From: a plasmid
DNA length: 8,331 nucleotides
Sequence record: NZ_CP040631.1
Reading direction: 5' to 3' (one strand)
This document shows positions 6,001-8,331 of the stretch, one piece after another (the stretch's first letter is position 1; every line of letters starts with the position of its first letter). A program made the position numbers.

Positions 6001-8331
6001 TCTCCAGCTCCCGGCTGGAAGGGCTTACCGTGATCACATAGAACTTCGCATCGTTCCGGCTTAATTTTGCCTTGTTGTTGTCTATTTTGAAGGTTACTTC
6101 CTGTGCGCTTATGTAGTCACGTGAGTTATTGAAAAACGGCTGCACTTCCTGGCCGTTCTTCATGCGCTCCAGATCCTCATGCTGGAGGTAGGTCGTTACT
6201 CCTGTGCAGCTCCCTGTATTGGCATAGGTTCCGGAACCGCCACCCTGAATCTTTATGTTCATAGTCCCCTCCTTTCCTTTTCCCTCTCATAGACCTTGTT
6301 TATATCATCGAGCAGCCCGGTCTTTCCTTTTGCATCGAGGAAGGAAACAATATGCTTATAGGCTTTAATCTGTGCCGTTTCGCTGGCTTCTATCCGCTTG
6401 AAGATAATATCCTGGTTCTTCCTGATAGTTGAATCGGAATCCCGCACCGCCCTTTCTGTCCGGCCTATGGCCTTGCCGTTGTTGTCGGAACTGTTGATAA
6501 TCTCGGCAAGCAGTTCCTTGTTCTCCTTCAGGAACCGCCTGAACTTTTCTTCCGAAAGTAAGGATGAAAGGCTTATGGTTATCTGTGTGCTGGCTCCGGC
6601 CAGAGCTTCACAAGCCGGACGCACAAGATCCGTTTCCTGTTTCTTCAGGAATGCGAACACCTGATCCATGCGCTTGATAAGTTTCTGCATTTCCTGTGCT
6701 GGGCTTTCATGCTCGACCGGGTTTATACCGTACTTCTCAAAGTAGTTTATAGCATGTGTAAGGAACTCCATTTTTGACACATTGTTTGCCTTGGCCAGAC
6801 GGTCAAGTTTAGTAAAAGTAGTACGTTCTACTGCTACCGTTGTTTTGCTGTCTTTTTCCATGATATTATAAGGCTTATTATAATGAATTAATATACTAAC
6901 TTATTGGTTTACAAGATAGTATATTTATTCATTATAACCAAATTATATTAGTATAATTTTCTAAATAACTGATTTACATCTAAAAACTCCGTAGGGCAAG
7001 AGGAAAAAACAGGGCTTGCCCGGTTTCCTCTTGCTGTTCTATCGAACACCCTCCCCAGCGCGAAATTAGCAAAGGGGACGGGGAGAGATAGAACCTATCC
7101 CACACACGTAAACACACACGAAAACCGCACGCCCGGTACACAACAGAAATACCCAACAAAACCGCACAACAGAACGTGTCCGGAACACCACAAAAACTCA
7201 TCGGTCGGGGAGCGCCGCACGGCAAGGGGGTGTACCAACACTCCCGACGAGTGCAGCCGTTTGCTTGGATATATGATATAAGTTATTTTGATTCTGTCAC
7301 AAATTCAAAAGGATTGCAGTATGTGCCGTTTCGGAACTTACTGCAATCCTTCATTTGTCGTCATAATGCCCCCAGGCTGAAATGATAAACACAATTACGG
7401 TAGTCTCGTTGACCATATACCTGATACGGTTCTTCTTGTCCAGCTGCCTTGACCAGACACCCTCCAGGTATCTCAACTGTTCCGGATGCCCTGTACCCGT
7501 GTACGGGTGTTCCCGGAGTTCATCAAGCAGCTTCTCCAGCTTCCTGAAAAGCTGCGGAGAGGATTTTCTCATCAACAGGACATGTTTTACCGCTTCTTTG
7601 GAAAATTCTATCTCATACATTGCCTTCGCCCTCTATACGGTTAAGAAAATCATCCAGAGACTCGTTTTTAGCCATTCTGAAGGTATTTCCGTTTCGGATA
7701 TCTTCAATACCTCTCTGGATGGCCGCAAGTTCTTCCTTTGAAGGGAAATCACCTTCTCTGACTGCACACACCATAATAGGGGCTGCATTGCGTCTGGAGA
7801 CCAGGATCGTTTCCGTCTCTGCCATTTCGAAGTATTTCTTCTGGTTGGCACGAAATTCGCGTGTTGTAACAATCTGCATAGTTCTAATATATTGGTTTAC
7901 ACTGCAAAAATAGGGATAAAAACCAATAAAACAAAAGTTTTGTGTACTTATTTGTGTACACGCGCGGAAAGTTCGTTCCTCAAAGAACGCTGCGCTGGCC
8001 TTTGCTTTGCTTTCACAAACATTCAAAAAGTCGTTTTTCACGGATTTGAAGGTCTGGAAGCCACATTCCGGCTAAAATTTTATGACTTGTTTTTAAGCAT
8101 TACTTGTTATATGCTTATCGACTTCCGAAAAACATGCTTTAACAATCTGATAAACAGTAAATTACAAGCAACAACAAGAATCCAACTACGACTTTTTGAA
8201 TACTAACTACGACTTTTCGAATACTATTTCAAAGTTTAACTACGACTTTTTGAATACTAATCACACAATCTACGACTTTTATTTGTTAAAGTCGTTTTTA
8301 ATACTTATATTTGCACAAAACACTGATAATT

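What the first reader, a model, noticed from the sequence alone, without database searches (positions are those of the whole stretch)
6990..7300. About 300-bp ORF-free tract with strong strand compositional asymmetry and nested hairpins
Between the candidate oriT and the toxin-antitoxin terminator the + strand is almost free of T. Runs such as cacacacgtaaacacacacgaaaaccgcacgcccggtacacaacagaaatacccaacaaaaccgcacaacag illustrate this. Only short low-complexity ORFs are present. The tract begins with a 40-bp nested palindrome (6994-7035) and a second imperfect one (7037-7093). It ends at a perfect 13-bp hairpin (7309-7351) that could terminate a + strand transcript. No feature class I know explains it. 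Candidates are a structured ncRNA, a single-strand initiation site used after conjugative entry, or a relic.
Basis: seen in the sequence. Interest (0 to 1): 0.55.

Follow-up and report, generated by a model that had tools for sequence, protein, structure and literature searches.

The report
Conserved structured cassette beside plasmid oriT
The odd T-poor tract is the non-coding region next to the transfer origin of a Bacteroides resistance plasmid, and inside it sits a 57-base folded DNA/RNA module, most likely a one-way transcription stop signal, that is shared almost unchanged by many unrelated mobile elements of gut Bacteroidales, including the very abundant plasmid pBI143.

Summary
The tract is real but composite. 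T-poverty is confined to about 7068-7196 (6.9% T at 7095-7196). Hairpins 6994-7035 and 7036-7094 are conserved in BtgA/BtgB (pIP417-type) mobilizable plasmids. Hairpin 2 shows a compensatory change, and both most likely belong to oriT. The T-poor spacer carries a 37-nt direct repeat that some relatives lack.

The informative part is a discrete 57-nt cassette (7197-7253, preceded by A-run 7192-7196). It occurs at 81-100% identity in at least 10 unrelated Bacteroidales mobile elements: pBI143, pBFP35, pMMCAT, IS256- and IS110-family insertion sequences, a phage-borne IS, and RteC/integrase loci. It matches no Rfam family.

An 8-bp hairpin shows at least 7 compensatory variants, and a loop-tail pairing also covaries. 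Across 24 unrelated flanks an A-run precedes the cassette, so the minus strand reads "closing helix + UUUU(U)". The cassette lies 0-142 nt behind minus-strand genes (IS256 tnp, istB, int, mobA, yoeB) and upstream of oriT/mob.

Best reading (about 0.5): an orientation-specific intrinsic terminator/insulator for leftward transcription. Rivals: a single-strand initiation signal on the predicted transferred strand, or a new structured RNA/ssDNA module. Hairpin 7309-7351 is the yoeB-operon terminator.

The parts
6862..6990 (.). AT-rich region upstream of btgA/mobA (start codon at 6861, minus strand), with a 25-nt inverted repeat at 6878-6902/6913-6937. Probably the mob promoter and the proximal part of oriT.
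   Evidence: I1; conserved in relatives. An 18-nt motif at 6896-6913 recurs upstream of the antitoxin gene at 7884-7901.
6994..7035 (.). Hairpin 1: 11-bp perfect arms GCAAGAGGAAA/TTTCCTCTTGC enclosing GGGC..GCCC. Probable oriT inverted repeat of the BtgA/BtgB system.
   Evidence: I7. Invariant in 10 close relatives. Retained in distant btgA/btgB plasmids L256 and L257, with only a loop change in L257.
7036..7094 (.). Hairpin 2: outer stem GTTCTATC/GATAGAAC, inner CCCTCCCC/GGGGACGGGGAG. Probable oriT inverted repeat.
   Evidence: I3. In L256 and L257 the outer stem is GTTCTTTC/GAAAGAAC (a change on both sides), with extra helices inserted inside.
7095..7191 (.). T-poor A/C-rich spacer with two copies of a 37-nt direct repeat (7110-7130 and 7147-7167, core AAAACCGCAC). 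One unit is dispensable.
   Evidence: (D2). L127 and L132 lack exactly 37 nt. A homologous but diverged tract is present in L256 and L257.
7192..7196 (-). A-run (U-run on the minus-strand transcript) directly abutting the cassette.
   Evidence: Over 24 unrelated flank clusters, A occupies position -1 in 22, -2 in 22, -3 in 20 and -4 in 18.
7197..7254 (-). 57-58-nt conserved cassette CTCATCGGTCGGGGAGCGCC-GCAC-GGCAAGGGGGTGT-ACCA-ACACTCCCGACGAGTG(C).
- P1: 7197-7202 with 7246-7251.
- P2: 7214-7216 with 7221-7223.
- P3: 7226-7233 with 7238-7245.
- P4: loop 7217-7220 with tail 7251-7254.
Read on the minus strand it is a closing helix followed by UUUUU.
   Evidence: Covariance model R1 scores it 85.8 bits; it is the only copy in the window. 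Covariation. Spread across elements.
7262..7310 (+). Remnant of the promoter/operator of a 104-aa gene (orf104) present in relatives. Contains the palindrome TTTTGATTCTGT/ACAAATTCAAAA (7286-7297/7299-7310).
   Evidence: I8. In L113, L129 and L131, orf104 is flanked by two copies of TTTGATTnTGTnACnAAATCAAA, with TAACTTTG upstream.
7309..7351 (-). Intrinsic terminator of the antitoxin-yoeB operon (7879 to 7351, minus strand): 20-bp stem followed on the minus strand by TTTTGAATTTG.
   Evidence: (I2). Rfam gives only a chance miRNA hit to the hairpin.

Best explanation
The window is a pIP417-type Bacteroidales mobilizable plasmid. It has a Rep3 iteron replicon, btgA/btgB-type mob genes, an IS5-nimE insertion, and a YoeB toxin-antitoxin pair.

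The finding covers the non-coding DNA between the mob promoter and the toxin-antitoxin operon. Reading rightward from btgA it contains:
1. Two conserved hairpins that are most likely the inverted repeats of oriT (inferred).
2. A T-poor spacer of variable length (shown).
3. A discrete 57-nt cassette plus an A-run (shown).
4. A promoter/operator remnant (shown by comparison with relatives).
5. The toxin-antitoxin terminator (inferred from hairpin plus T-run).

The cassette is a portable module shared by many unrelated Bacteroidales mobile elements (shown). It folds into a compact structure with one firmly covarying 8-bp hairpin, P3 (shown). A 3-bp hairpin (P2) and a loop-to-tail pairing (P4) have some support.

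Its most likely job is to act in the minus-strand transcript as an orientation-specific Rho-independent terminator (inferred, not shown). The helix CUCGUC(GG)/(CC)GAUGAG closes the fold and is followed at once by UUUU(U), so RNA polymerase travelling leftward would stop there. In this plasmid that would form a second barrier behind the yoeB terminator. It would keep transcription from the toxin-antitoxin/rep side out of oriT and the mob promoter. In pBI143 it would end the mobA transcript before repA. In IS256-type elements it would end the transposase transcript.
For: - A-run on the plus strand (U-run on the minus strand) abuts the cassette in 18-22 of 24 unrelated flank clusters. No T-run follows on the plus-strand side.
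- Minus-strand RNA folds of most variants place a 7-9-bp closing helix directly before the U-run.
- Minus-strand genes end just upstream of it in the leftward direction. The IS256-family transposase ends 6-8 nt away in several diverged copies, including a phage-borne one. Others: IstB at about 0 nt, tyrosine integrase at 142 nt, pBI143 mobA at 140 nt, and yoeB at 99 nt.
- The cassette lies upstream of, and co-directional with, mob genes in five unrelated relaxase contexts, 151-339 nt from the mob start or, in pBI143, between mobA and repA.
- At the same position L257 has a diverged homologue whose last hairpin, CTTATCGATCGATAAG, is followed by U6 on the minus strand. L256 has a weak hairpin plus U6 there.
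- No Bacteroides-type -7 box (TAnnTTTG) is consistently placed to transcribe the cassette on the plus strand.
- The structure is under selection: P3 is 98% paired with 4 covarying pairs, and 0 of 500 shuffles reach the observed score.
Against: - A terminator needs no conserved sequence, yet 35 of 57 positions were invariant in 26 variants. Part of this is forced, because copies were collected with an exact 16-19-nt key from the 5' half.
- The fold is branched and possibly pseudoknotted (P4), which is unusual for intrinsic terminators.
- The closing helix P1 shows no covariation and is broken in L004, L174 and L003.
- On the minus strand P3 carries an A.C mismatch, whereas on the plus strand it is a G.U wobble.
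- In pBFP35-type and orf104-bearing plasmids the next gene to the right is on the plus strand, so no minus-strand gene ends there.
- In an IS1111-like IS110-family element the cassette follows the transposase in the non-terminator orientation.
- The simple terminator scan did not call the cassette.
- Fold energies of the isolated cassette are no better than shuffles (z about -0.8).
- The L256 hairpin is weak.
- No transcript data were available.
Confidence: 0.5

Rival explanations
1. Single-strand initiation signal (sso/ssi-like). The cassette works as folded single-stranded DNA on the transferred strand, or on the strand displaced in rolling-circle replication. There it recruits RNA polymerase or a primase to start complementary-strand synthesis after conjugative entry.
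For: - In MOBV-type plasmids the pMV158-like nick motif lies on the same strand as the cassette. pMV158's transferred strand reads GCACACA-IR-TATAGTGTG/TTATAC (PMC3105389, PMC5863519).
- In pBFP35 the motif GCACACA-IR-TATAGTGTG/CTATAAC lies about 120 nt upstream. In L208 it is about 75 nt upstream. In pBI143 it is about 1.3 kb upstream.
- The cassette is antisense to the mob gene in 6 of 7 plasmid backbones.
- pBFP35 has a Rep_1 (rolling-circle type) replicase on the cassette strand.
- sso modules are known to be shared between unrelated plasmids and an ICE, and to aid conjugative establishment (PMC4595007).
- On the plus strand P3 has a G.T wobble rather than a mismatch.
Against: - The cassette is an internal part of IS256- and IS110-family insertion sequences and lies beside IS21. 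None of these has a known single-strand stage (own knowledge).
- The pMMCAT copy is on the same strand as its relaxase.
- The window plasmid is a Rep3 iteron (theta-type) replicon.
- pBI143 RepA is on the opposite strand.
- The conserved A-run has no role in this model.
- No promoter-like boxes occur in the fold.
Confidence: 0.15
2. A new sequence-specific structured RNA or ssDNA module. It would be a compact, possibly pseudoknotted fold recognised by a host or element factor, or catalytic. The variable apical P3 stem would set specificity, and the U-run would simply be its own 3' end.
For: - Conservation of unpaired segments is very high, together with at least 7 compensatory P3 variants, including two variants inside one plasmid family.
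- P2 shows a compensatory change in L005.
- P2-loop column 30 pairs with tail column 64 as A-T in 13 sequences and G-C in 21 of 35. L208 adds a T-A change at the next pair.
- There is no Rfam match.
- The cassette occurs in many kinds of mobile element, once in tandem, as small ribozymes and similar motifs often do (own knowledge).
Against: - No partner, cleavage site or consistent promoter was identified.
- The cassette sits in both orientations relative to IS110-family transposase genes.
- The two-state loop-tail covariation follows clades, so it may be phylogenetic.
- Palindrome-templated correction can produce compensatory-looking changes in DNA hairpins without selection on RNA (own knowledge).
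Confidence: 0.2
3. A DNA-level recombination or mobility site: a small mobile cassette, an insertion hot spot, or an orphan oriT (hairpin + 8 nt + nick) used in trans. This would explain its sharp boundaries and its presence at junctions of variable modules.
For: - Both boundaries are sharp while the flanks are unrelated.
- Homology between family members breaks shortly after the cassette.
- Insertion sequences lie next to or inside it: an IS256 copy is inserted into another copy's cassette in L223, and L190 and L179 are truncated inside P3.
- One tandem duplication occurs in L241.
- The format 'P3 hairpin + GACGAGYG' resembles the IR + 8 nt + nic layout of oriTs (PMC3105389).
Against: - There are no terminal repeats or target duplications.
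- Copy number per genome is low.
- The cassette is not adjacent to the relaxase gene in the conjugative plasmids examined.
- In the cointegrate L097 the junctions are not at the cassettes.
- P4 covariation links the tail to the fold rather than to a nick.
Confidence: 0.08
4. The tract (7095-7191) and hairpins are only spacer or relic DNA with no function beyond oriT.
For: One 37-nt repeat unit is dispensable. No promoter, ORF or Rfam family was found.
Against: The A/C-rich character and part of the sequence persist in distant btgA/btgB plasmids. Hairpin 2 shows a compensatory change. The cassette clearly is not a relic.
Confidence: 0.05

Closest known systems
Rho-independent (intrinsic) transcription terminators
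   Same: A G+C-rich folded segment whose closing helix is followed immediately by a run of 4-6 U. It is unidirectional, placed behind genes and between transcription units, and another such terminator lies 45 nt away in the same window (7309-7351).
   Different: The fold is branched, 57 nt long and possibly pseudoknotted. Its sequence is conserved across unrelated mobile elements, and it has a hypervariable but always paired apical stem. Ordinary terminators are simple hairpins with no sequence conservation.
Single-strand origins of rolling-circle plasmids and ICEs (ssoA, ssoU, ICEBs1 sso1; PMC4595007) and Frpo/ssi elements of leading regions (PMC11541004)
   Same: A non-coding, strand-specific, folded module near oriT on the (predicted) transferred strand. 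It is exchanged as a cassette between unrelated replicons.
   Different: It is much shorter than the roughly 200-nt ICEBs1 sso1 (PMC4595007). It has no promoter-like boxes in the stem, is also carried inside insertion sequences, and has a conserved A-run that those elements do not need.
oriT of MOBV plasmids (pMV158: GCACACA-IR-TATAGTGTG/TT; PMC3105389, PMC5863519)
   Same: pBFP35, L208 and pBI143 carry a clear homologue of this oriT just upstream of the cassette, on the same strand. The cassette itself has a hairpin followed by a conserved 8-nt tail.
   Different: The cassette shares no sequence with that oriT. It is a separate module downstream of the predicted nick, and it is shared by plasmids with unrelated relaxases.
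REP/BIME-type intergenic hairpin repeats of enterobacteria (own knowledge)
   Same: A short conserved hairpin module in intergenic DNA behind genes, with proposed terminator or mRNA-stabilising roles. It is also a place where insertion sequences land.
   Different: REP elements are high-copy chromosomal repeats. This cassette is low-copy and confined to mobile elements.

Membership tests
Intrinsic terminator | Stable helix immediately followed by a U-tract on the transcribed strand | tested here: met
   On the minus strand the helix CUCGUC(GG)/(CC)GAUGAG is followed by UUUUU. A-run statistics cover 24 unrelated flanks. The simple scanner, which expects a plain hairpin with a 3-8-nt loop, did not call it.
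Intrinsic terminator | Lies downstream of a co-oriented transcription unit | tested here: inconclusive
   Met for IS256 tnp, IstB, integrase, pBI143 mobA and yoeB. Not met for pBFP35-type and orf104-type plasmids or for the IS1111-like context.
Intrinsic terminator | Transcripts end at the U-tract | not testable with these tools
   No transcript data were available.
Single-strand origin (sso) / ssi | Sits, in one fixed orientation, on the strand that becomes single-stranded | tested here: inconclusive
   The cassette is on the same strand as the pMV158-like nick motif in pBFP35, L208 and pBI143. It is antisense to mob in 6 of 7 backbones, pMMCAT being the exception. The nick strand of the BtgA/BtgB system is unknown.
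Single-strand origin (sso) / ssi | Confined to elements with a single-stranded DNA stage | tested here: not met
   The cassette is internal to IS256- and IS110-family insertion sequences.
Single-strand origin (sso) / ssi | Supports orientation-specific conversion of ssDNA to dsDNA | not testable with these tools
   Needs ssDNA accumulation or transfer assays.
Frpo-type single-strand promoter | Hairpin that mimics a double-stranded promoter with -35/-10 (for Bacteroides, TTTG / TAnnTTTG) boxes | tested here: not met
   No TAnnTTTG lies in or beside the cassette in the window. The cassette is 68% G+C.
Any Rfam 15 RNA family | Covariance-model match | tested here: not met
   An E<=1 scan of both strands gave only two chance hits, at 7297-7360 and 4880-5050, and none in 6990-7296.
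tRNA/tmRNA-like attachment site | ARAGORN-detectable tRNA or tmRNA fold | tested here: not met
   0 genes found in 6800-7450.
oriT of the BtgA/BtgB (pIP417 MobA/MobB) system (for hairpins 1 and 2) | Inverted repeats directly upstream of the mob operon, conserved with the mob genes | tested here: met
   Hairpins 1 and 2 co-occur with btgA/btgB in close and distant relatives. The hairpin 2 outer stem changes on both sides.
oriT of the BtgA/BtgB (pIP417 MobA/MobB) system (for hairpins 1 and 2) | Mapped nick site / cis-acting transfer activity | not testable with these tools
   The primary papers on pIP417 and pBFTM10 oriT were not held in the library.
REP/BIME-like dispersed repeat | Many copies per chromosome | tested here: not met
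   One copy per contig as a rule in the species-representative genomes that matched. There is a single copy in the window.

The most novel reading that the evidence does not exclude
The 57-nt cassette is not merely a terminator. It would be a previously undescribed, compact (P1-P4, possibly pseudoknotted) functional nucleic-acid module that Bacteroidales plasmids, insertion sequences, integrative elements and a phage-borne IS all carry. Its invariant junctions would be read by a common host or conjugation factor, or be catalytic, and the fast-evolving apical stem would set specificity. One example is a universal priming or establishment signal for incoming DNA. Because it sits in pBI143, one of the most abundant genetic elements of the human gut, it would be among the most abundant structured non-coding elements in gut metagenomes.
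Probability: 0.2. Interest if true: 0.75.

Novelty: new variant of a known kind. Interest (0 to 1): 0.5.

Why it matters
If the cassette is a terminator, it is a ready-made, compact, orientation-specific insulator that evolution has reused across Bacteroidales mobile elements. That would be useful for annotation: it marks transcript ends in pBI143, pBFP35, nim and cfxA plasmids, and IS256/IS110 elements. It could also serve as a part for Bacteroides genetic engineering.

If it is more than that, such as a priming signal or a protein- or RNA-recognised fold, it would be a common handle shared by otherwise unrelated gut mobile elements, including resistance plasmids. That would make a direct experimental question possible: what do these elements all need from the host?

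Either way, the analysis splits an apparently mysterious 300-bp tract into ordinary oriT-adjacent parts plus one unannotated, widely shared module that Rfam does not hold.

Tried and rejected
- **Rfam:** a scan of the whole window at E<=1 found nothing in the tract.
- **tRNA/tmRNA:** none found.
- **Coding potential:** the 81/48/41/69-aa ORFs are rejected because relatives differ by a 37-nt indel.
- **Plus-strand sRNA with its own promoter:** no consistently placed Bacteroides -7 box across 19 contexts. The E. coli-type scan gives only AT-rich matches near the mob promoter.
- **Frpo-like single-strand promoter:** no promoter boxes in the fold.
- **Xer/cer-like site:** by inspection, no 11-6-11 core.
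- **Cognate oriT of a conjugative plasmid:** the cassette is far from the relaxase genes in pPvulCL10_2 and pMMCAT.
- **Part of IS110 bridge/seek RNA:** the cassette occurs in both orientations relative to the transposase.
- **P1 as a proven helix:** it has an invariant A.C mismatch on the plus strand, no covariation, and is broken in three variants.
- **RNAfold's alternative minus-strand inner helices:** they pair variable P3 bases with invariant bases and are contradicted by the P3 covariation.
- **Literature searches:** searches for the sequence itself, pIP417, BtgA oriT and a Bacteroides single-strand origin gave nothing specific. One guessed PMC id for the pIP417 mobilization paper was not held.
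- **Genome scan key:** the 16-mer used on genome contigs was too short and returned mostly chance hits in high-G+C genomes. These were filtered by requiring GGCAAGGGG.
- **Cassette-less close relatives of the IS256 elements:** BLAST found none.
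Full report
**What the window is.**
The 8331-bp window is a Bacteroidales mobilizable plasmid of the pIP417/pBACSA03 kind. Its annotated content:
- Rep3-type initiator at 1-981, with 23-nt iterons at 8184-8260.
- IS5-family transposase at 3359-4216 (minus strand) and nimE at 4327-4839.
- DUF5712/BtgB-type protein at 5363-6262 (minus strand) and BtgA-type protein at 6259-6861 (minus strand).
- YoeB toxin at 7351-7620 (minus strand) and its antitoxin at 7613-7879 (minus strand).

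The finding covers the intergenic DNA between the btgA start and the end of the yoeB operon.

**Checking the observation.**
T is 6.9% in 7095-7196, against 29% for the whole window. The most T-poor 100-nt windows start at 7068-7070. Over the full 6990-7300, T is 16.7%, so the asymmetry is real but local. The three hairpins exist as described, with small differences in length. The region folds better than shuffled sequence on both strands. The mechanical ORFs across it are not conserved as reading frames, because relatives L127 and L132 differ by a 37-nt deletion. The tract is conserved: ten plasmid records cover at least 80% of 6860-7360, and 136 records match part of it.

**Anatomy from comparison.**
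Aligning ten relatives and two distant btgA/btgB plasmids (L256, L257) splits the tract into parts.
- *Hairpin 1 (6994-7035).* It is essentially invariant everywhere btgA/btgB occurs.
- *Hairpin 2 (7036-7094).* It keeps its outer stem through a change on both sides (GTTCTATC/GATAGAAC versus GTTCTTTC/GAAAGAAC) and tolerates inserted helices.
- *Likely role of both hairpins.* Together with the AT-rich repeat next to btgA, they are the obvious candidates for the oriT inverted repeats. From memory, the original pIP417 description mentions three inverted repeats in its putative oriT, but I could not retrieve that paper.
- *T-poor spacer (7095-7191).* It contains two copies of a 37-nt repeat. Relatives with one copy show that its length is not critical.
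- *7262-7310.* This is what remains of the promoter/operator of a 104-aa gene present in relatives L113, L129 and L131. There the gene is flanked by two copies of the palindrome TTTGATTnTGTnACnAAATCAAA.
- *Hairpin 7309-7351.* It is followed by a T-run on the minus strand and abuts the yoeB stop codon, so it is the terminator of that operon.

**The cassette.**
The surprise is 7197-7253. This segment alone matches plasmids with unrelated backbones at 81-100% identity:
- pBFP35-type 5.6-kb plasmids (MOBV relaxase, Rep_1 replicase).
- pBI143 (RepL-type replicase).
- The roughly 98-kb pMMCAT plasmids.
- A 39-kb conjugative plasmid.

Exact-seed scans of genome, metagenome and viral contigs, followed by filtering, gave 148 copies in 24 unrelated flank contexts. 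A covariance model finds a single copy in the window, at 85.8 bits. Both boundaries are sharp.

*Structure.*
- P3 is an 8-bp hairpin, GGGGnnnn-ACCA-nnnnTCCC. Its four apical pairs occur in at least seven mutually compensatory versions, 98% of cells are paired, and no shuffle reaches the observed covariation.
- P2 is a 3-bp hairpin with one compensatory change, in L005.
- A pairing between the P2 loop and the 3' tail (P4) covaries: A-T in 13 sequences and G-C in 21 of 35, and L208 changes the neighbouring pair to T-A.
- The terminal helix P1 (CTCATC/GACGAG) is conserved but unproven.
- The cassette matches no Rfam family and no tRNA-like gene.

**Contexts.**
In plasmids, the cassette is antisense to the mob gene in the following contexts:
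- The BtgA/BtgB family, 301-339 nt from the start codon.
- pBFP35-type plasmids, 227-267 nt.
- L208, 151 nt.
- A Dysgonomonas NikA/MobC plus MobA/VirD2 locus, 254 nt.
- pBI143, where it lies between mobA and repA.

In the three MOBV-type contexts a close homologue of the experimentally nicked pMV158 oriT lies on the same strand as the cassette (pMV158: GCACACA-IR-TATAGTGTG/TTATAC, on the transferred strand; PMC3105389, PMC5863519). It sits about 120 nt upstream in pBFP35, about 75 nt in L208, and about 1.3 kb in pBI143.

Further mining showed the cassette in elements for which I know of no single-stranded stage:
- Several diverged IS256-family elements, 6-8 nt after the transposase stop and inside the terminal repeat. 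One of these is carried by a Phocaeicola phage.
- The 5' non-coding end of an IS110-family element, once tandemly duplicated.
- The 3' non-coding end of another IS110-family element.
- Directly behind IstB of an IS21 element.
- Between convergent rteC and integrase genes.

The pMMCAT copy came in with a pBFP35-like mazEF fragment and lies on the same strand as that plasmid's relaxase.

**What decides the reading.**
Across the 24 unrelated flanks, the four bases 5' of the cassette on the plus strand are A in 18-22 cases, while the 3' side has no T-run. On the minus strand the cassette therefore ends in a closing helix followed at once by UUUU(U), which is the signature of an intrinsic terminator for leftward transcription. 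Minus-strand folds of most variants place a 7-9-bp helix against the U-run.

The gene contexts agree in most cases:
- Minus-strand genes end 0-142 nt before it: IS256 tnp, istB, int, pBI143 mobA and yoeB.
- It precedes co-directional units that would need insulation: oriT/mob, pBI143 repA and an IS110-family transposase.

At the equivalent place in L257, a diverged homologue keeps the cassette ends but has reorganised into two hairpins. The last of these, CTTATCGATCGATAAG, is followed by U6. L256 has a weak hairpin plus U6. I therefore rank 'orientation-specific intrinsic terminator/insulator' first, at about 0.5.

**What this does not explain.**
- The near-invariance of unpaired segments. This is partly an artefact of exact-seed collection, but it is also seen in BLAST hits.
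- The branched and possibly pseudoknotted fold.
- The rapid, always compensated turnover of the P3 apex, even within one plasmid family.
- The G.U wobble on the plus strand, which is an A.C mismatch on the minus strand.
- Contexts with no minus-strand gene upstream (pBFP35-type and orf104-type plasmids).
- The reversed orientation in the IS1111-like element.

These points keep two rivals alive. One is a single-strand initiation signal (0.15). The other is a new sequence-specific structured module (0.2), which is the most novel reading not excluded. A DNA-level recombination or mobility site (0.08) is suggested by the sharp boundaries, nested and truncated copies (L223, L190, L179) and one tandem duplication, but it lacks any positive signature.

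**Comparison with known systems.**
The cassette works most like an intrinsic terminator. It differs in being a conserved, branched, horizontally shared module. It resembles sso/ssi elements in position and strand in plasmids (PMC4595007, PMC11541004), but it fails the test of being confined to elements with a single-stranded stage, and it has no Frpo-type promoter boxes.

I found no description of it in Rfam or in the searchable literature. The pBI143 study marks only an 'IR' on its plasmid map.

**Verdict.**
The T-poor tract as a whole is ordinary oriT-adjacent non-coding DNA. The 57-nt cassette within it is a real, selected, unannotated and widely shared element whose mechanism is probably termination but is unproven. 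Interest is moderate (0.5).

Noticed in passing
window 2448-2608 and 5359-5519; 1645-1866 and 2610-2831: The IS5 transposase and nimE segment is bracketed by 161-nt direct repeats (94% identical) of the 3' end of the DUF5712/btgB gene. A 222-nt partial duplicate (79% identical) of the second BtgA-like gene lies next to it. This suggests the resistance module arrived by recombination that duplicated plasmid backbone.
   Followed up: partly
window 8184-8260: Three 23-nt iterons, AACTACGACTTTTTGAATACTAA, lie upstream of the Rep3 initiator gene (the record is circular). They mark the vegetative origin of a theta-type replicon.
   Followed up: partly
window 6896-6913 and 7884-7901: An 18-nt motif, CTAAnnTATTGGTTTACA, recurs just upstream of both minus-strand operons (btgA-btgB and antitoxin-yoeB). 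It may be a shared promoter or operator element.
   Followed up: no
window 7309-7351 versus L126, L127, L128: The central part of the yoeB terminator hairpin is inverted between plasmids. The window and L001 read TATGTGCCGTTTCGGAACTTA, whereas L126-L128 carry close to its reverse complement. This is a palindrome flip that leaves the stem intact.
   Followed up: no
L113 6115-6429, L129 1989-2303, L131 1994-2308; homologues in L009 and L138: A 104-aa gene with a GxREGAGRK motif follows the cassette on the plus strand in many BtgA-type and MOBV-type plasmids. It has no Pfam family. It is flanked by operator-like palindromes and is precisely absent from the window.
   Followed up: partly
L002 1905-1945; L003 2658-2677 (minus strand); L208 2905-2940: Bacteroidales MOBV-type plasmids keep the pMV158 oriT architecture (GCACACA-IR-TATAGTGTG/CTAT), but on the strand antisense to the mob gene. 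In pMV158 the nicked strand is the mobM coding strand. The relaxase gene would therefore be transferred last in these plasmids rather than first.
   Followed up: partly
L097 (8-kb genome contig): An apparent cointegrate of a pBFP35-like plasmid and pBI143. Two cassettes of different P3 type sit in direct orientation about 1.5 kb apart. The junctions are not at the cassettes.
   Followed up: partly
L223 about 4300-4420; L190 726-776; L179 5-61; L241 580-706: An IS256 copy is inserted into the cassette of another IS256 copy. Two cassettes are truncated inside P3. One exact tandem duplication covers the cassette plus a 13-nt spacer.
   Followed up: partly
window 7351-7879 relative to oriT: The toxin-antitoxin operon lies in the predicted leading region and points toward oriT. 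The predicted transferred strand would therefore be its template. This is the arrangement reported for leading-region genes of conjugative plasmids (PMC11541004).
   Followed up: no
window 1211-1320: Several copies of a (C/A)AGCATAT motif lie upstream of the second BtgA-like gene (1324-1866). They may be binding sites.
   Followed up: no
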